A stretch of DNA of 64,000 nt from the NCBI GenBank assembly GCA_951406725.2, contig OX597842.1, positions 23,312,001 through 23,376,000 on the forward strand, read 5' to 3'. The position numbers were made by a program, and so were the translations under genes. This DNA comes from Octopus vulgaris. Taxonomy: Eukaryota. Under the pieces are notes generated by a model. The model was given only the letters and a program-made list of their open reading frames with translations, was not told the DNA's origin and searched no databases. Below, one piece after another: positions 46,546 through 61,069 of the stretch (positions within the stretch are counted from its first letter, which is position 1; each line of letters begins with the position of its first letter).

Positions 46546-48876
46546 TGTGTACAGTGCTCAGGTGCACTACAACTCATCTAAAGTGTATATATAATCAGGT
46601 GAAGTTTCGGCGGATTTCGGAAAGCATGAGGGCCTTAAAAGATGCAGTGTCATGGCAGTCAACAACTGACGCAGGCAGTTTATTCCATGCTTCAGCAACT
46701 CTGAGCGTGAAAAAATGTTTCCGAAAGTCATGGGAGCTGTATTGTTTTCTGACTTTGTAGGCATGTCCACGTGTGTTAGACACATGGAGATCAAAAAGGT
46801 GTTTAGTGTTGTTGTTGGTGAGGTGGTTGATAACTTTGTGGGTGTTTACCAAGTCCGTCGCCAAACACCGGAGCTTCAGTGAATCCATGCCCAGGGAAAC
46901 AAGGCGCTCAGAATATGGTAGGTGTCTGATGGAGGGTATGCGTTTGGTTGCACGTCTCTGGACAGATTCCAGGAGGTCAATGTTCTGTGCAAGATAGGGG
47001 TTCCAAACTGATGATGCGAATTCCAAGTGTGGTCGTACCATAGCTGTATACAGTTTTAAATAGATGGCTGGAGAGCGGCTAACAAAAGACCTGCTGAGTG
47101 ATGCCAAGACACCCTCGGCCTTCCTGACAATCTTAGAGATATGCTTTGACCAACGCAAATCACTGCTGACAGTGATGCCTAGGTCACGATCGCAAGAGGA
47201 TTTCTTGATATCAGTGTTGTGGAGGGAGTATGTGAACGCAGGGTTTTTTCTCCCAAAATGCATGGTGGTACACTTGTCCACAGCCAGTTTCAGTTGCCAG
47301 TCTGTGATCCATTGCTGCATTGTGTCTAGGTCTGATTGCAGGAAAGAGTTGTAGACATCAGGATCTGTCCTCTTGATTTCAAGGTACAGCTTGATGTCGT
47401 CTGCATATTTCAATACTGTGGCATTCTTTAAATTGGCATCTATGTCGTTAATGTATGCCACAAACAAGAGGGGGCCAAGGACAGATCCCTGTGGTACACC
47501 CGATGACATCTCATATGGTGTAGAGTGCTGTCCTAGAACTGTGACTACCTCCTTTCGGCTGAGGATGAAGGATTTCAACCAGTTAAAAAGGTCATCCCCC
47601 ACACCCATTGCAGAGAGTTTCACCATAAGCCTTTTGTGTGGCACAGAGTTGAAAGCCTTAGCAAAGTCAAGGTAGACAACATCCACCCATGAGCCACTGT
47701 CAGTAATCTGAGTAATGTCCTCAAGGAACTCGACAAGCTGGTCACTGCAGCTGGAGTTAGGGACAAATCCATATTGTGAGGGTTGGATGAGACTGTGAGA
47801 GCTCCAGAAGTTCCAGAGTGTTTCTCTGACACACGATTCCATCAGTTTTGCAATACAGCTAGTGAGACTGACTGGGCGATAGTTGACAGGTGATGTGCGG
47901 TCGCCCTTTTTGAACAGAGGAATGACACTGGCAGTTTTCCACTGCTCCGGAGTAGCACCATTGTTGAGACAGTACTGGAAGAAAATAGAAAGCTGGTGTA
48001 AAAGGAAGTGCCTGCCACGTTTGAGAAGCAGGTATGTAACTCCATCGAGACCAGGGGAGGCATAGTTGCGCTTATTTTGAAGGTGACGTCGCAGCATTGC
48101 AGGTGTAAATTCCATAGTTGTTATGGAGTTTGCTGTTAGTGATGGTGAAGATGGTACATTTTGACTTTCAACAGTGAATATGTTTGCATAGCACTCGGCA
48201 ATGAGTTCTGCGCATTCCTTGGGGTCGTCAGTGATCTGGTTTGTGTGAGGGTTGCGAAGAGGGCCCACTGGAGAGTGAGGTCTCTGCTTTGAGTGCACAT
48301 ATTTCCAGAAAACCTTGCTGTCAGGATTGGCTGCTATGCACTGTTCAAATTCAAGCACTGCTTTTTTTGTCACTTGCTTGAGATGGTTGGAGGATTTATT
48401 CCGCTTCTTCCTGTTGGTGTCTGATTTATGCAACCTGTATTCCCGTTCAGCAGTCCGACGTTCCCTCCTGGCAAGTCGGACCGCTGAAGTTTCCCAAATT
48501 GCCCTTTTGGGGCGGTTCTTCTTTTTTTGTTTACGTGGCACTGATGCTGCACATGCTGCCCATATTGAGTCCAGGATACTCTGGAGTATAGTATTCACAT
48601 CTCCAGAGTTGTAGAATTCACGCCAGTTTGGGTGCTGTAGTTCAGTGTGGTACAGGTTCCAATCTGCTCTCTTCCAATCGAAGGAAGCAGATTGGAGATG
48701 GTTCAGGTTTTTGTTGCCCGCAAGAGCCAGATTGGCGATGATCATAGCATGATCAGAGTCACCTAGAGGTTCCTCCGTAGTGCAATTGATAACCGCTTCA
48801 GGAGTTGTGGTGAAGAGCAGGTCCAAGGTGTTGTCGCCTCTTGTTGGAGAGGTGACTACTTGTGACCAGTTTGAGT
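46501..48876 (-). mobile_element. 5'-truncated CR1-group LINE with open ORF2 (EN C-terminus + RT), antisense in the intron of gene 8
   Basis: 743-aa ORF with PTRG.NTLDL, NYRPVSLT, GVPQGSVLGPLLF, KYADD; short 3' UTR and (TTA)n tail. Confidence 0.95.
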
Positions 48877-49053
48877 CCGGCGTAATTGATAAATAAAATG
48901 AGAGGAAAGCCAGTGAAAAATATATTAATCGGTTAATCTACAATTTAAGACATGGTCACCTAAAAAAAAAACCCAGCCTACTATGTGTAGAAGACGAATG
49001 TGTAAAAATAAAATTTACGCAAACGAACGTGGATTATTATTATTATTATTATT

Positions 49054-49402: not shown

Positions 49403-50168
49403 GTCCACGGGTGTTAGACAGGTGGAGTTTGAAAAGGTGCTCAGAGTTATTGTTTGTAAGATGGTTTATTTTTTTTATGTGAACCCTTCCAAGTTATAGT
49501 ATTCACATGGAATCAAAGACACATAAGAACTTTGGTAAAATATGGTTCTCTGTTCTTAGATGTATCAAGCTTTGCTTTTTCTGAAAGATATGAGGAGATA
49601 ACTTTAGACTGGCCATACCTAAACATTTGTTTAGGTATGGCCAGTTTTTCAACACCTCAATGAATTCCGACCCATGTGAAAATAGGCATTAAATGGATGA
49701 CAGTGATGATGCAGTAATATTTGCAATGTTCAATTACTTTATCATTTATCTTCTACTCTTTATCTCACTGTTTCTTTTCTTATTTCAGAATATCCCACCT
49801 TGTTGACGTCAAAGAAATGTCTTCATTGAGATGTGCCTCTGATGTTTTTATCAACTTTTATTGACTAAAGAAAGACGATATATTTATAAGGAGCATTCAT
49901 CAACACATCAATCTCTTTATATAAATAATATCTATGACAAACAACAGTGAAATATTTTTCTTGTCTTCACTGTCTGGAATGTAGAGGAGGTGATTGCTTT
50001 ACATGTTGGATAACTTTACAAACAAGTTGACAGTTTTCACCTGCTGAGTTAGATATTAAATAATCCCACAGATGAGAGAAACATAGCCTTAAATTTTTCC
50101 CTGAAAATAGTGACTCAACTGAACATGAACATATTCATAGAAATGAAAAAAATATCATTGTGATATGT

Positions 50169-51656
50169 ATGGTAAATTATTCTCTCATGATGAATAATTT
50201 AATAAAATCTGACAACTGTAATACAGGAGAGGAATCATATTCCTGTGATGTCTGTGGTAAATCATTCTCTGGAAAAAGTTACTTGACTGTTCACAAACGT
50301 ACACATACAGGAGAGAAGCCATATCAGTGTGATATCTGTGGTAAATCTTTCTCTTGCAGTAGTCACTTGTGTAGACATAAACGTATTCATACCGGGGAAA
50401 AACAATATCATTGTGACATCTGTGGTAAATCATTCTTTCAGAGCAGTACTTTAATTAGACACAGAAGTGTTCATACAGGTGAGAAGCCATATCATTGTGA
50501 TATCTGTGGTCAGGTATTCTCTCAAAGTAATTACTTGACCATTCACAGACGTGTCCATACTGGAGAAAAACCATATCACTGTGATATCTGTGGTAAATCA
50601 TTTTCTCAAAATAACACTGTAACTAGTCACAAACGTACACATACAGGAGAAAAGCCATATCATTGTGACATCTGTGGTAAATCATTCATGGAAAATGGTC
50701 ACTTGACTAAACACAAACTGATTCACACAAAAGAAAAACCATATCATTGTGATATCTGTGGCAAATCATTTTCTCAAAATGGTCACTTGACTGGTCACAG
50801 ACGTATCCATACTGGGGAAAAACCATATCACTGTGATATATGTGACAAATCATTTTCTGAAAACAGCGCTTTAACTAAACACAAACTTGTTCATACAGGT
50901 GAGAAACCATATCATTGTGATATCTGTGGCAAATCGTTCTCTCAAAATAGTCAGTTGACGAGTCACAGACTTACTCATGCTAGAGAAAAGTCATATTCCT
51001 GTGATGTTTGTGATAAATCATTTTCTAAAAATAGCACTTTAACTAAACACAAAAATATTCATACAGGTGAGAAGCCGTATCATTGCAATACCTGTGGTAA
51101 ATCATTCTCTTGTAATAGTGCTTTAACTAGTCACAGACGTATTCATACTGGGGAAAAACTATATCATTGTGATATCTGTGGTAAATCATTTGCTGACAGT
51201 AGCAATTTAACTTATCACAAACGTGTTCATACAGGAGAGAAGCCATATGATTGTAACATCTGTGGTAAATCATTCTCCCGAAGTAGTTACTTGACTAGTC
51301 ACAGACGTGTTCACACAGGAGAAAAACCATATCATTGTGATATCTGTGGTAAATCATTTTCTCACAACAATACTTTAAATAATCACAAACGCGTTCATAC
51401 AGGAGAGAAGCCATATCATTGTGATATCTGTGGTAAATCATTCTCTGAAAGTAGTTACTTGACTATTCACAGACGTGTTCACACTGGGGAAAGACCATAT
51501 CACTGTGATATTTGTGGTAAATCATTTTCTTACAATAACAATTTAACCAGTCACAAGCGTATTCATACTGGAGAGAAGCCATATCATTGTGATGTCTGTG
51601 GTAAATCATTCTTTAAAAAAGGCCATTTAAGTACACATGTGAGTAGTCACACATAA
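50169..51656 (+). CDS. C2H2 zinc-finger protein 8 (17 fingers)
   Basis: Uninterrupted ORF from ATG 50169. Predicted intron 45477..49788. Conserved 3' UTR displaced to 52945-53200, with AATAAA at 53141 and 53162. Confidence 0.9.
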
Positions 51657-51696
51657 GTGTTACTGTAACTGTACATTTACTATAGAGCAGTTGTAT

Positions 51697-51908
51697 ACTC
51701 TCTCTTTTACTTGTTTCAGTCATGTGACTGTGGCCATGCTGGAGCACCGCCTTTAGTCGATCAAATCGACCCCGGGACTTATTCTTTGTAAGCCTAGTAC
51801 TTATTCTATTGGTCTCTTTTGCCGAACCACTAAATTACAGGGATGTAAACACACCAACATCGGTTGTCAAGTGATGCTGGGGGGACAAACACAGACACGC
51901 AAACACGC

Positions 51909-51943
<35 letters not shown>

Positions 51944-52115
51944 CTTATATACGACAGGCTTCTTTCAGTTTCCGTCTACCAAATCCACTCAGAAGTCTTT
52001 GGTCGGCCCGAGGCTATAGTAGAAGACACTTGCCCAAGGTGCCACACAGTGGGACTGAACCCGGAACCGTGTGGTTCATAAGCAAACTACTTACCACACG
52101 GCCACTCCTACGCCT
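51697..52115 (-). mobile_element. SINE family A (inverted partner at 52451-52835, +)
   Basis: Full-length copies in opposite orientation within the predicted 3' UTR of gene 8. Confidence 0.85.
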
Positions 52116-52276
52116 ATTGTCCTACTGTCAACTTAACGTGACAGTCCCATAAAAGGAATTACACCACCGTTGTTTAGCCCTAGGAAGCATCAACGCTCCC
52201 TATTGGCCTTGACACATTTTCTGTGTCCTTATGTTTACAAGGGGTAGACAAGCACCCTCATCCAGCTAAGCCTTAA

Positions 52277-52318
52277 TCCAGAGACTAGTTTCTGAGTTTT
52301 ACTCTTCATCAGTCTGGA
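52277..52318 (-). ncRNA. Candidate minimal type I hammerhead ribozyme
   Basis: UCCAGA CUGAUGA aGAGUaaaACUCa GAAA CUAG UC UCUGGA: 6-bp stem I, both core boxes, palindromic stem III, GUC cleavage triplet. Confidence 0.7.
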
Positions 52319-53431
52319 GTAGCATGGCTTGCTGGCTGGTTGAAGATGCCTGTCTAGACCTTGCAAACATATAGAATTTCAGTGAAGTAAATTCACTGAT
52401 CAGAAAAAAAAAAAATAGAAATATTAAATTTCTAAATATCTAAATATATAGGTGCAGGAGTGGGTGTGTGGTAAGTAGCTTGCTTACCAACCATATGGTT
52501 CCGGGTTCAGTCCCACTGCGTGGCATCTTGGGCAAGTGTCTTCTACTATAGCCTCAAGCTGACCAAAGCCTTGTGAGTGGATTTGGTAGATGGACACTGA
52601 AAAGAAGCCCGTCGTATATATGTATATATACATGTGTGTTTGTCCCCCTAGCATTGCTTGACAACCAATGCTGGTGTGTTTATGTCCTCTGTAACTTAGC
52701 AGTTTGGCAAAAGAGACCGATAGAATAAGTACTAGGCTTACAAAGAATAAGTCCTGGGGTCGATTTGCTCGACTAAAGGCAGTGCTCCAGCATGACCACA
52801 GCCAAATAACTGAAACAAGTAAAAGAGTAAAGAGTATCTCAGATAGATATAAGCAGTGGTGGGACGATAGAGCAGTTGTATAATGTCTCAAAATATCTGT
52901 CTCTGAGATATTTAGAAATTTAATATTTCTATTTTTTTTGTAATTATGACTATGTTTTCTGCTAAAAGATGTTTTTTTATCTCTTCACGTTTGACATTGT
53001 CAACTTCAATTTCATCGATGACTTCAAATTCATGAATATGAACCTGAATGTTATGTATATATGTAAATATATCAACTCAACAAGGACTTCGATTTCTTTA
53101 AGAGGATTGTGCTGGATTTTTGAGGAATTTATTATGAGAGAATAAAGAAATGGGAATAATGAATAAAAAATTAAATTGACATTGATTTTGTCAGTGTTGT
53201 GTTTTCATCATCATCCTTTAGCGGAAATTTTTTTATATGCATGGCGGGGGCAGTGTGACATGAGCTGGCAAACCATAATGCTGCACTAGGTTTCCAATCT
53301 GATTTGTTTGGGTTTCTTTGGGTGTATTCTCCTAATGCTAACCAGTTTACAGTTCATGCCATGTGCTGTACATATATATGTATGTGTCTGTGTGTGTGTG
53401 TATGCAAATACATACATACATACATATATAT

Positions 53432-53630
53432 ATATAATATTAATTAGAGACAAAACCACTATTTTGCAAAACAAACAAGGAAAGACTTAATCAATACATA
53501 AAATTTTATTTTTTTAACTTTTTATTTTTTACTTTTTATTTTTTACTTTTTATTAAAATTTTATGTATTGATTAAGTCTTTCCTTGTTTGTTTTGCAAAA
53601 TAGTGGTTTTGTCTCTAATTAATATTATAT
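53432..53630. repeat. AT-rich fold-back repeat; similar hairpins at 54275-54547 and 63480-63820
   Basis: ~75-bp perfect inverted arms. Confidence 0.85.
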
Positions 53631-53767
53631 AATATTTTACTATAAAATTGGATTTAATCCTAAATCTGATTTTTTCCCTGTAAATTTGGATTTATTCCCT
53701 AATATTTATTATTATATATATATATATATATATATACTCAAAAATAAGCAACAAGAATGAATCCGGT

Positions 53768-53859
53768 AATTTAGTACAATTGTTTCATACTACAACATTT
53801 TATTAAAAGCTGTAAATATTAAAGCAGTTATAAGATGTCAAGTAATCTTCAGCTAATTT
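53768..53859 (-). ncRNA. Candidate hammerhead ribozyme, long stem II variant
   Basis: UUAG CUGAAGA [~59-nt imperfect hairpin] GAAA CAAUUG UA CUAA; GUA triplet. Confidence 0.5.
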
Positions 53860-56658
53860 TATATTATATTATTGGAAAACCTATATGAAATTAGCTGAAG
53901 ATTACTCGGCATCTTAAAACTGCTGTAATATTGGAAACCTAGTGCAGCATTATGGTTTGCCAGCTCATGTCACACTGCCCCTGCCATGCATATAAAGAAA
54001 TTATAATCACCGCGCATATTTTTATGGGTCACACCATAAAAAATTCTGGTGCATCTAAGTTAAGTGCCATATTCACTTGAATCTAAATTGTTGCTGAACT
54101 TAGATATGATTTTTGATTTTTTTGATTTTGATTTTTTCCAGTTTCAGCTTATGAGCTGTGGCCATGCTGGGGCACCGCCATATATATATATATATATATA
54201 TAGGGTGGGGAATACTCGTTATAAATATCACCACCAGTGGCCTAGAATGTATTAAAAGTCAATAGACAACATATTCGTATTTCAAAATAGAAAATTACCC
54301 TTTAACAGGTAATTTTACATGCTAGAAATAGCAGCCAACACGGCCAAAAACCACAATTTTATACTTCGAAATTTGCTATAAAATTATGGTTATACCATCG
54401 TATAACCGTTATATAACAAGGTAAAGGTTTTTATTTTTCATTTACTTCGAAATTTGCTATAAAATTGTGGTTTTATAGCCGTGTTGCCTGCTATTTCTAG
54501 CATGTAAAATTACCTGTTAAAGGAAAATTTTCTATTTTGAAATACGTATACATACATACATGCATGCATGTATGTATGTATACATATTTCAAAATACGTT
54601 ATGTCATTTTTAGCACAGTGTCAACAGACATACTTTCGAGAGATGTGGTAAAAATAGCAGCCAAATAGACCTTAAGTCAAGCAGCCCGTAATTTTTTAAA
54701 CAAAATACGGGTACTAAGCAGTGGTGTGTATAAATGCAATGTTATTACCATTTTGGATATGTCGGTGACAGGTTCAAACTCATACACATTCATTGTTTTG
54801 TTATGAAGAAAATTTCTTCTTGTAGAGAAAAAATGTAAATAGGCATAGGAGTGGCTGTGTGGTAAGTAGCTTGTTTACCAACAACATGGCTCCGGGTTCA
54901 GTCCCACTGCGTGGCACTTTGGGCAAGTGTCTTCTACTATAGCCCCGGGCCGACCAATGCCTTGTGAGTGGATTTGGTAGATGGAAACTGAAAGAAGCCC
55001 ATCGTATATATGCATATATATGTTTGTGTGTCTGTGTTTGTCCGACCAACACCGCTTGACAACCGATGCTGGTGTGTTTACATCCCCGTAACTTAGCGGT
55101 TCGGCAAAAGAGAACGATAGAATAAGTACTGGGCTTACAAAGAATAAGTCCCAGGGTCGATGTACTCGACTAAAGGCGGTGCTCCAGCATGGCCGCAGTC
55201 AAATGACTGAAACAAGTAAAAGAGAAAGAGAGTACTAAGCAGTGGTGTGTATAAATGCAATGTTATTACCATTTTGGATATGTCGGTGACAGGTTCAAAC
55301 TCCTACACATTCATTGTGTTTTGTTATGAAGAAAATTTCTTCTTGTAGAGAAAAAAATGTAAATACACCTAAATCAGATTTACACCATTTGTCTAGAGCC
55401 AGAAATTTTACACCATGGAAGTGGATCCAGGCAATGACTTACCCCAACATGTCAAATCAAGATGTAGAGATTTTATTTATTGCTTTAGTTTATTCTTATA
55501 CCTAAAGATAGGTTTTCCTGTCACGATATCCATTGGTGGCAAGCTGGTAGAATCGTTAGCATACCGGGCAAAATGCTTAGCGGTATTTCATCTGTCTTTA
55601 CATTCCGGGTTCAAATTCTGTCGAGGTTGACTTTGCCTTTCAGCCTTTTAGGATCGATAAATTAAGCACCAGTTATGCACTGGGGTTGATATAATCGACT
55701 TAATCTGTTTGTCTTCTCTATGTTTAGCTCCTTGTGGGTAGTAAAGAAATATGATAGAATCAAGATATAGTGGAGCAAGAATGTGAAACTTTGTAAGACC
55801 AGAGGGTTCTTTGAATAGTTTACAAATGGAAGTGGTCAAGTAATGGTCAGCATTGCCACACATAAGAGAAAGAGATAGCAGTAAAGGGCTTGAGGCTTTT
55901 AGGATCATAGCAAAGAATGGAAACACAATGAGTATGTAATATGGTTTAAAGGTTTATTGAAAAAGTTAAGAATTATAAGCGACAGATATTACAATGTATG
56001 TGTATTTTTGTGTCTAGTCAAGTTACCACTCCAAGAGAATGATTTACCACAGGTATCACATTGATATGGCTGTCTTTACATTCTGGGTTCAAATTCTGTC
56101 GAGGTCGACTTTGCCTTTCATCCTTTTAGGATCGATAAATTAAGTACCAGTTACACACTGGAGTCGATATAATCACCTTAATCTGTGTGTCCTCTCTGTG
56201 TTTAGCCCCTTGTGGGTAGTAAAGAAATAGATATCCATCCACTTGTTTGCCATATTTTTTTAATGCATTCACTTTCCATTTGAAAATCATGTCCTACCCA
56301 TCTGCACTGAATTCTCATCAACACGCTTTGGATGCTGGACATACCACATGTGCCTAAGATTTTGACATTTGATGTGTTATCATGCCATTTTGTTGCATAT
56401 TTTGTGCAAACATCATATGTGAAAAGTTTCAAGTTTTTTTTTTATTTCTGTGTAGAAGGGAGTCCCTGCTTCTGCCCCATACAAAAATATACTAAAAATA
56501 CAAGATTTGTATACACTTATTTTAGTTATCAGACTCATCATGTTCACACACATACATACATATATCAAATTAAATACACAACTGAATGGGCTACTACTAG
56601 TTTCATGCTATTATGATACTTGAAAAGGCATATTTATAAAATACATCATGTATCTTAA

Positions 56659-58639: not shown

Positions 58640-60557
<1,918 letters not shown>

Positions 60558-61069
60558 ATATATCACAAAGATTTTTTCTTTTCTATGAATATATTTGTGT
60601 TCAGTTCAGTTAGTATTTTCAGGGAATAATTTAATGCTATGTTTTTCAGCTGTGATCTTACTTAATATCTAAATTAGCAGGTGAAAACTGTCAGGTCCTT
60701 TGTAAAGTTATCCAAACTTGTAAAGCAATCACCTCTACATTCCAGTGGAGACAAGAAAAATATTTTGCTGTTGTTTGTCATAGATTATATCAATATAAAA
60801 AGGTCGATGTATTGATGAAGGCTCCTTATAAATATATCGTCTTCCTTTAGTTTATGAAAGTCCATAAAAATATCAAAAGTCACATCTGAACGACAAGATT
60901 TCTTTTACGTCAACAAGATGTGATATTCTGAAAGAGGAAAAGAAACAGTAAGATAAAGAGAATAGTTAAGTGACATAATAATTCAACATTGCAAATCTTA
61001 CAACATCAATACTGTGATCCATTTAATGTCAATGTTCGCAAGGGTCAGAGTTCATTGAAGTGTTGAAAG

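What the first reader, a model, noticed from the sequence alone, without database searches (positions are those of the whole stretch)
52277..52318. Minimal hammerhead ribozyme antisense inside a ZNF 3' UTR
Seen: the minus strand reads UCCAGA-CUGAUGA-aGAGUaaaACUCa-GAAA-CUAG-UC-UCUGGA, with a perfect 6-bp stem I, both conserved boxes, a palindromic ACUAGU stem III and a GUC site (cleavage 52283/52282). Known: such minimal type I hammerheads mark Penelope-like elements and retrozymes, and the palindromic stem III is thought to favour dimeric cleavage. Seen: it lies between an inverted SINE pair, within a segment bounded by an ATAGAGCAGTTGTATA direct repeat (~51681, ~52867) that separates the gene 8 stop from its polyA signals. 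Inference: it could process antisense RNA across this gene. The A-A pair at the base of stem II may have inactivated it.
Basis: partly seen in the sequence, partly recalled or inferred. Interest (0 to 1): 0.72.

Follow-up and report, generated by a model that had tools for sequence, protein, structure and literature searches.

The report
Decayed retrozyme copy behind zinc-finger gene
The hammerhead motif is real, but it is one worn copy of a 355-base repeat with hundreds of copies, likely spread by Penelope-like enzymes, and it lies backwards behind a zinc-finger gene, so it likely does not cut that gene's RNA.

Summary
The motif is there as described (52277-52318, minus strand; 0 matches in 300 shuffled windows). 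It is not a minimal hammerhead and not locus-specific. It is the canonical type I hammerhead of a ~355-nt protein-free repeat; 595 genomic sites match the core exactly. The family has tandem arrays, two fixed 3' ends, ragged or inverted 5' ends and 10-14-bp target duplications. That is a non-LTR retrozyme with a Penelope-like insertion footprint. The 16-bp 'direct repeat' is the unit junction, not a target duplication. Both SINEs jumped into the unit later and point away from the ribozyme. The family majority does not repair the base of stem II: it is C·A in 235 of 595 sites, U·U in about 175, A-U in 53, and canonical G-C in 1. This copy's A·A is a rare private change, and its loop II and distal stem I are also damaged. 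Stem III is one pair plus a palindrome, so cleavage should need a dimer, and this copy is single and antisense to the gene. Verdict: a likely inert insertion of a known element type. The scan noted other retrozyme families in this genome before.

The parts
50076..51656 (+). Last coding exon of a C2H2 zinc-finger gene (17 fingers by regex), stop TAA at 51654-51656
51682..52939 (-). Whole retrozyme insertion: about 1.05 units plus an inverted tail, with two nested SINEs. It starts about 25 bp after the stop. No target duplication; about 20 bp of the paralogous site are missing
51682..51699 (-). 3' end of the element at the unit junction (first copy of the 16-nt 'direct repeat')
51700..52118 (-). 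SINE copy 1, inserted into the unit; its head is at about 52118 and reads away from the ribozyme
   Evidence: SINE identity from copy number in the window and recalled tRNA-like head
52123..52441 (-). Body of the 355-nt unit (unit positions 343 to 30), 87% identical to the L008 unit, 8.4% from the family majority
52256..52345 (-). Full type I hammerhead with extended stem I and the UAC/U internal loop 1; the 3-bp helix next to loop 1 is broken in this copy
52277..52318 (-). Hammerhead core as reported; predicted cleavage between 52283 and 52282
52293..52305 (-). Stem-loop II: A·A at 10.1·11.1 (family C·A), three pairs GAG/CUC, loop II with a private C to U change
52284..52289 (-). Palindromic stem/loop III ACUAGU (the sister subfamily has ACAUGU)
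52448..52834 (+). SINE copy 2, inserted into the unit, reading away from the ribozyme; with SINE 1 it is predicted to form a ~350-bp duplex in the sense 3' UTR
52835..52882 (-). Unit positions 34 to 1 and the preceding junction (second copy of the 16-nt repeat at 52867-52882)
52894..52939 (+). Inverted 'tail' (unit positions 18-61) at the element's 5' end, a Penelope-like footprint
53141..53167 (+). Two AATAAA hexamers in sequence conserved in paralogous ZNF 3' regions

Best explanation
This is a single, mutated copy of a ~355-nt hammerhead-bearing repeat (a non-LTR retrozyme) that was likely pasted in by a Penelope-like reverse transcriptase/GIY-YIG enzyme, and it is likely inert here because it lies antisense to the zinc-finger gene. 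Shown: unit length, copy number, insertion footprint, nested SINEs, orientation and private damage. Inferred family cycle: multimeric transcripts would fold two neighbouring hammerheads into a dimer through the palindromic stem III and cut at GUC. They would release unit-length RNA that may circularise. A Penelope-like enzyme would then copy it from two fixed points, leaving ragged or inverted 5' ends. Inferred for this locus: the mRNA carries only the complement, which cannot cleave. An antisense transcript would carry one damaged ribozyme with no partner in cis. If the insertion affects the gene at all, the likelier route is the inverted SINE duplex in the 3' UTR.
For: High-copy family: 3,234 first-look candidates; the best non-self full-length hits are 86-90% identical; 595 exact core matches versus 0 for the reversed control. 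Tandem trimer with period 355; units fold as highly paired circles, z -4.7 and -9.8. Among 67 distinct loci, 64 end at one of two points (39 at unit 345-355, 25 at a 40-80 tail), 5' ends vary, 24 have an adjacent inverted arm, and only 2 of those have the tail at both ends. This is the pattern described for Penelope-like elements (PMC8557442 passages). 11 of 49 loci show 10-14-bp target duplications (read by eye). The genome holds many 781-aa RT+GIY-YIG open frames. Structure is supported across 70 distinct copies: 87.8% of cells paired against 17-47% when slid, with A-U/U-A swaps in distal stem I and in the stem III palindrome. Loop 1 U, loop 1 C and loop 2 A are kept in 68, 71 and 70 of 71. 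Private mutations hit the core about as often as the rest of the unit, 1.9% versus 2.6%, p 0.53, as expected for neutral decay after insertion. The active monomer fold is 6.2 kcal/mol above the minimum; a 6-bp stem III mimic is 1.9 above for this copy and 0.7 for L012.
Against: Cleavage was not measured for any copy. No autonomous element sharing sequence with the unit was found: none in 30 GIY-YIG loci, and the Penelope-like fragments in 4 family loci look like independent insertions. The window copy has no target duplication. Only 1 of 67 loci starts at the cleavage site, so the DNA record does not show cleavage. Copies were retrieved by similarity or by the core pattern, which biases the tallies. 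Covariation rests on a few subfamily-level events and related sequences (caveat). All 13 core nucleotides of the window copy are intact, so residual activity is not excluded.
Confidence: 0.85

Rival explanations
1. The copy has been co-opted to cut antisense or read-through RNA, for example from the convergent minus-strand ZNF gene at 58719-60605, and so shields the plus-strand gene.
For: The core is intact. A convergent ZNF gene lies about 6 kb away. Natural mismatches at the base of stem II can be active (PMC3088659; PMC7229834).
Against: There is no dimer partner in cis. The copy has three private lesions (10.1, loop II, distal stem I) and is among the more diverged copies (8.4% against a mean of 5.7%). 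Paralogous ZNF genes lack the insert. No minus-strand transcript is shown, and contigs of runs guessed to be RNA span the site uncut.
Confidence: 0.05
2. The unit is the solo pseudo-LTR of an autonomous Penelope-like element that is extinct or was not found, rather than a self-propagating retrozyme.
For: Retrozymes match pLTRs in Xenopus (bioRxiv 10.64898/2026.07.22.740005). The tail and inversion footprint is the same.
Against: Copies that run past the unit start continue into more of the same unit, not into coding sequence. Upstream flanks share no junction-adjacent sequence apart from one SINE match to the window copy. The young autonomous family has a different, minimal U3-A8 ribozyme.
Confidence: 0.07
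3. The C·A and U·U ribozymes were already dead when they spread. The family moved as uncut read-through RNA and the hammerhead is a relic.
For: 10.1·11.1 is non-Watson-Crick in 451 of 595 sites. Only 1 of 67 loci starts at the cleavage site. Eight of nine predicted Xenopus retrozyme dimers did not cleave.
Against: No shared subfamily variant falls in the 13 core columns, against 44 of 253 other columns (p 0.14, suggestive only). Compensatory swaps keep the palindrome and distal stem I. The axolotl U·U ribozyme cleaves, better as a dimer.
Confidence: 0.15

Closest known systems
Metazoan non-LTR retrozymes (Cervera & de la Peña 2020, PMC7229834; mussel 350-390 bp, axolotl 330/350 bp)
   Same: Protein-free, AT-rich (43% GC), 355-nt highly paired unit with one canonical type I hammerhead; monomers and short tandems; long target duplications.
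   Different: An older, decayed family (mean 5.7% from the majority), mostly monomers. Circular RNA and cleavage are not shown. No autonomous partner was found.
Axolotl HHR_Amex1 and HHR_Amex2 (PMC7229834)
   Same: Like Amex1: single-pair stem III with a palindromic tetraloop and the loop 1/loop 2 contact nucleotides. Like Amex2: a mismatch at the base of stem II.
   Different: Both weaknesses occur in one ribozyme, and the mismatch differs by subfamily (C·A, U·U, G·U, A-U). I did not find C·A described.
Schistosoma mansoni type I hammerhead (loops as given in PMC2632901)
   Same: Internal loop 1 with a 5' U and an extrahelical C; a 5-6-nt loop 2 starting with C and ending with A.
   Different: The stem III here is palindromic and minimal, and 10.1·11.1 is rarely G-C.
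Minimal hammerheads of Penelope-like pLTRs (Cervera & de la Peña 2014, PMC4209133)
   Same: Palindromic positions 15.2-16.2; dimer logic; Penelope-type insertion footprint.
   Different: [quoted passage not shown] None of these holds here.

Membership tests
Canonical type I hammerhead | Core CUGANGA, GAAA and UH with stem I closing around the core | tested here: met
   core intact in 26 of 31 similarity-retrieved copies
Canonical type I hammerhead | 6-bp helix I, 4-bp helix II, 1-2-bp helix III with a palindromic loop | tested here: met
   helix II has 4 positions, with a true basal pair only in the A-U and U-A copies
Canonical type I hammerhead | Standard pair (usually G-C) at 10.1-11.1 | tested here: not met
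   A·A in this copy. Over 595 sites: C·A 235, U·U about 175, U-A 86, A-U 53, G·U 10, A·A 9, C-G 4, G-C 1. Natural U·U exceptions are published
Canonical type I hammerhead | Loop 1/loop 2 tertiary nucleotides (loop 1 5' U, extrahelical pyrimidine, loop 2 3' A) | tested here: met
   68, 71 and 70 of 71 sequences; in the window copy the loop 2 A may be tied up in a new U-A pair
Canonical type I hammerhead | Self-cleavage | not testable with these tools
   needs a transcription assay
Rfam Hammerhead_1 / clan CL00010 | Score at or above the gathering threshold | tested here: not met
Minimal hammerhead of Penelope pLTRs | Long helix II (7-8 bp), short helix I, poorly defined loop 1, G10.1-C11.1 | tested here: not met
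Non-LTR retrozyme | 150-450-bp unit with one type I hammerhead, also found in tandem | tested here: met
   355-nt trimer L008; further multimers L097, L123, L144
Non-LTR retrozyme | No protein; GC below 50% | tested here: met
   longest ATG frame 51 aa, GC 43%
Non-LTR retrozyme | Target duplications longer than 4 bp when present | tested here: met
   10-14 bp in 11 of 49 loci, read by eye; none at the window copy
Non-LTR retrozyme | Highly self-paired unit RNA | tested here: met
   circular fold z -4.7 and -9.8 for two L008 units; the antisense strand is also stable
Non-LTR retrozyme | Expression as linear and circular monomers | tested here: inconclusive
   only contigs of runs guessed to be RNA were available
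Non-autonomous Penelope-like element | 5' truncation, partial tandems, adjacent inverted copy, tail at one end only | tested here: met
   the tail here is about 50-60 bp, longer than the 30-40 bp in PMC8557442
Non-autonomous Penelope-like element | Sequence shared with the pLTR of an autonomous element | tested here: inconclusive
   none in 30 of 148 GIY-YIG matches examined or near family loci

The most novel reading that the evidence does not exclude
This lineage keeps its hammerhead weak and family-specific on purpose. Successive subfamilies fixed different weak oppositions at the base of stem II (C·A, U·U, G·U, A-U, almost never G-C) on top of a one-pair stem III. They also swapped the stem III palindrome (CUAG versus CAUG), so a ribozyme would cut only as a dimer with its own kind. 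The lineage would be a natural mutational series for how retrozymes tune self-cleavage and avoid cross-dimers.
Probability: 0.25. Interest if true: 0.55.

Novelty: new member of a known kind. Interest (0 to 1): 0.3.

Why it matters
For the locus, little: it is an ordinary transposon insertion behind a zinc-finger gene, in the orientation that cannot cut the mRNA. For ribozyme specialists the family is a modest resource. Several hundred copies reached high number with a C·A or U·U mismatch where nearly all hammerheads have G-C. Searches that demand a pair there would miss them (PMC3088659 rejected such hits by rule), and Rfam missed both copies tested. Natural dimers are available for a direct test of whether such variants cleave and whether CUAG and CAUG palindromes keep subfamilies apart.

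Tried and rejected
Rfam found no hammerhead at gathering or useful E-values; I read this as a limit of the models, not as absence. The 16-bp repeat as a target duplication was rejected because it is the unit junction. 'Minimal' hammerhead was rejected. The search for an autonomous partner found none: 30 GIY-YIG loci, flanks of 49 loci, and widely spaced pairs L091, L141, L142, L143. 5' ends at the cleavage site are not enriched, 1 of 67. Selection on the core in individual copies was not detected, p 0.53. Expression: no RNA holder is listed on record; the laid runs are contigs, give no strand, ends or level, and cannot show circles. The bacterial promoter scan is irrelevant here. Lünse et al. 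2017 on dimeric Penelope-associated hammerheads was not held and is recalled only. Look-ups of earlier scan findings by sequence and near this place returned nothing.

Full report
Observation. It has a 6-bp stem I, CUGAUGA, stem-loop II with A·A at its base, GAAA, the palindrome ACUAGU, and GUC with the scissile bond between 52283 and 52282. It is the only match in the window. A scan with the same demands found 0 hits in 300 Markov-simulated 64-kb windows. Rfam does not report it: nothing at gathering, no hammerhead at E up to 10 in 51000-53600, and only Hammerhead_3 at E 7.7 for a better copy. The 56-nt motif alone does not fold better than shuffles.

It belongs to a repeat family. The 288 bases around the motif gave 3,234 first-look candidates in the window's own 2.8-Gb genome. 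40 were scored, and the non-self full-length matches were 86-90% identical. Locus L008 holds 2.8 head-to-tail units of 355 nt. The 16-nt 'direct repeat' is the junction between units. The window therefore holds one unit plus a 16-nt overlap on the minus strand, then a short filler and an inverted piece of unit positions 18-61. Two SINE copies interrupt the unit, so they are younger. Their heads point away from the ribozyme; the SINE label rests on copy number in the window and on recall. Paralogous ZNF genes in the window have the stop-side and AATAAA-side sequences about 31 bp apart with no insert. The element thus sits about 25 bp behind the stop, with about 20 bp lost and no target duplication.

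Insertion footprint. I tallied 67 distinct loci, leaving out the window copy and 22 duplicate fetches. 39 end at unit position 345-355 and 25 at a tail ending at 40-80. The 5' ends are scattered. 24 have an adjacent inverted arm, and only 2 of those have the tail at both ends. Eleven of 49 loci have 10-14-bp target duplications, read by eye. PMC8557442 (passages) describes 5' truncation, partial tandems, an inverted 5' copy and a one-sided tail as marks of Penelope-like elements. The genome has many RT+GIY-YIG frames of 781 aa. None of the 30 loci examined out of 148 matches shares sequence with the unit. The main autonomous family carries a different, minimal U3-A8 hammerhead-like motif. The mobilising enzyme is therefore inferred, not identified. 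The unit codes for nothing (longest ATG frame 51 aa, 43% GC) and folds as a highly paired circle (z -4.7 and -9.8). This fits non-LTR retrozymes (PMC7229834, parts 2-3 of 6 and passages). It also fits their proposed status as non-autonomous Penelope-like elements (bioRxiv 10.64898/2026.07.22.740005, parts 1-3 of 5). That preprint reports that exon-overlapping copies tend to be in 3' UTRs and that only 1 of 9 tested dimers cleaved.

Canonical, not minimal. PMC4209133 (parts 1-2 of 4) defines canonical metazoan hammerheads by a 6-bp helix I, a 4-bp helix II and a 1-2-bp palindromic helix III. It defines minimal ones by a 7-8-bp helix II and a poorly defined loop 1. In 71 aligned copies, stem I continues beyond a UAC/U internal loop. 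For my named structure 87.8% of cells pair, against 17-47% when the partners are slid. There is a U-A/A-U swap in distal stem I (48 versus 6) and a UA/AU swap at the centre of the stem III palindrome (45 versus 23). These are a few subfamily-level events among related sequences, so the support is modest. The nucleotides that make the loop 1/loop 2 contact in the Schistosoma ribozyme (PMC2632901, passages) are kept in 68, 71 and 70 of 71 copies.

The base of stem II. A relaxed core pattern gave 595 exact matches and 0 for the reversed control. Sub-patterns split them into C·A 235, U·U about 175, U-A 86, A-U 53, G·U 10, A·A 9, C-G 4, G·A 3 and G-C 1. These counts come by subtraction and hand counts. 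The U·U figure is approximate because (178 matches) used a slightly wider pattern. All patterns fixed the three upper pairs. The U·U, A-U and G·U sites belong to sister subfamilies 70-80% identical to the L008 unit. U-A looks like CpG decay of C·A, since other CpG sites change at similar rates. The majority therefore does not restore the pair, and the window's A·A is a rare private change from C·A. A U·U at this position is published for natural ribozymes (PMC3088659, passages; axolotl HHR_Amex2). I did not find C·A, or this family, in the library. Supplements of these papers and Lünse et al. 2017 (not held) were not seen and may list them.

This copy. It is 8.4% from the family majority, against a mean of 5.7%. 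Besides 10.1 it has a C to U change that can close loop II to three bases and two changes that break the helix next to loop 1. Stem III is one pair plus a palindromic tetraloop. The active monomer fold is 6.2 kcal/mol above the minimum. A 6-bp stem III mimic brings the gap to 1.9 for this copy and 0.7 for L012. Private mutations hit core columns at 1.9% and other columns at 2.6% (p 0.53). No shared variant lies in the 13 core columns, against 44 of 253 other columns (p 0.14). This fits constraint on source elements and neutral decay of inserted copies, but neither test is significant. Only 1 of 67 loci begins at the cleavage site, which gives no DNA evidence of cleavage.

Transcription. No holder is on record as RNA. 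In three runs guessed to be RNA, low-depth contigs match this exact copy and span the site uncut with 0-2 differences. A large run of unrecorded kind (X12) also carries the A·A variant. This is compatible with the insert lying in the sense 3' UTR, but contigs give no strand. The sense transcript would carry the complement of the ribozyme and a predicted ~350-bp SINE duplex. Repeats in cephalopod 3' UTRs are frequent A-to-I editing targets (PMC9068888, passages). That the genome is an octopus-like cephalopod is my inference from the ZNF cluster, the SINE and the genome size.

Verdict. The motif is real but is a likely inert antisense copy of an older retrozyme family with a Penelope-like footprint (confidence 0.85). 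Co-option against antisense RNA is unlikely (0.05). Earlier notes of this scan describe other, younger retrozyme families in the same genome; none matched this sequence. What is modestly new is the subfamily series of weak oppositions at 10.1·11.1 and the two alternative palindromes, both directly testable in vitro.

Noticed in passing
L067, L072 and relatives (e.g. L072 about 2667-2710): A young autonomous Penelope-like family with many 781-aa RT+GIY-YIG frames. Its 3' end carries a minimal hammerhead-like motif with U3-A8 in place of C3-G8 and a CAUG palindrome.
   Followed up: partly
L123 (G000:C12:23423309-23426482): A 2.5-unit array whose 5' end falls at the cleavage site, with 3 bases of microhomology. 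Both downstream units share a 22-nt deletion of the ribozyme's stem II region, while the inverted arm has an intact ribozyme and different variants, as if two templates were used.
   Followed up: partly
G000:C3:4.1-7.0 Mb (L144-L148): Six of the ten G·U (10.1·11.1) copies cluster within 3 Mb of one contig, suggesting local hopping or segmental copying.
   Followed up: partly
window 51702-52117 with 52448-52827: The inverted SINE pair is predicted to form about 350 long-range pairs in the sense 3' UTR, a candidate editing substrate.
   Followed up: partly
window 53226-54002, 53431-53631, 53815-53932, 54272-54550: Nested, near-perfect inverted repeats (50-79-nt arms) just downstream of the AATAAA sites; possibly MITE-like or Penelope-like inverted insertions.
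   Followed up: no
window 54698-54833 and 55219-55356: A SINE at 54836-55230 is flanked by an unusually long (~135-bp) direct duplication.
   Followed up: no
window 46595-48937 (-): A 780-aa open frame with RVT_1 and a weak endonuclease match: a LINE inside the ZNF cluster.
   Followed up: partly
window 27175, 32508, 58719 (3' of the stops): Three ZNF paralogues have premature stops followed by 250-430 bp of degenerate finger repeats before the shared 3' region.
   Followed up: no
L004:1581-1658 joined to 1945-2009 (run X1): One contig joins an antisense piece ending at the cleavage site to a sense piece of the unit; a genomic inversion or an artefact, not resolved.
   Followed up: no
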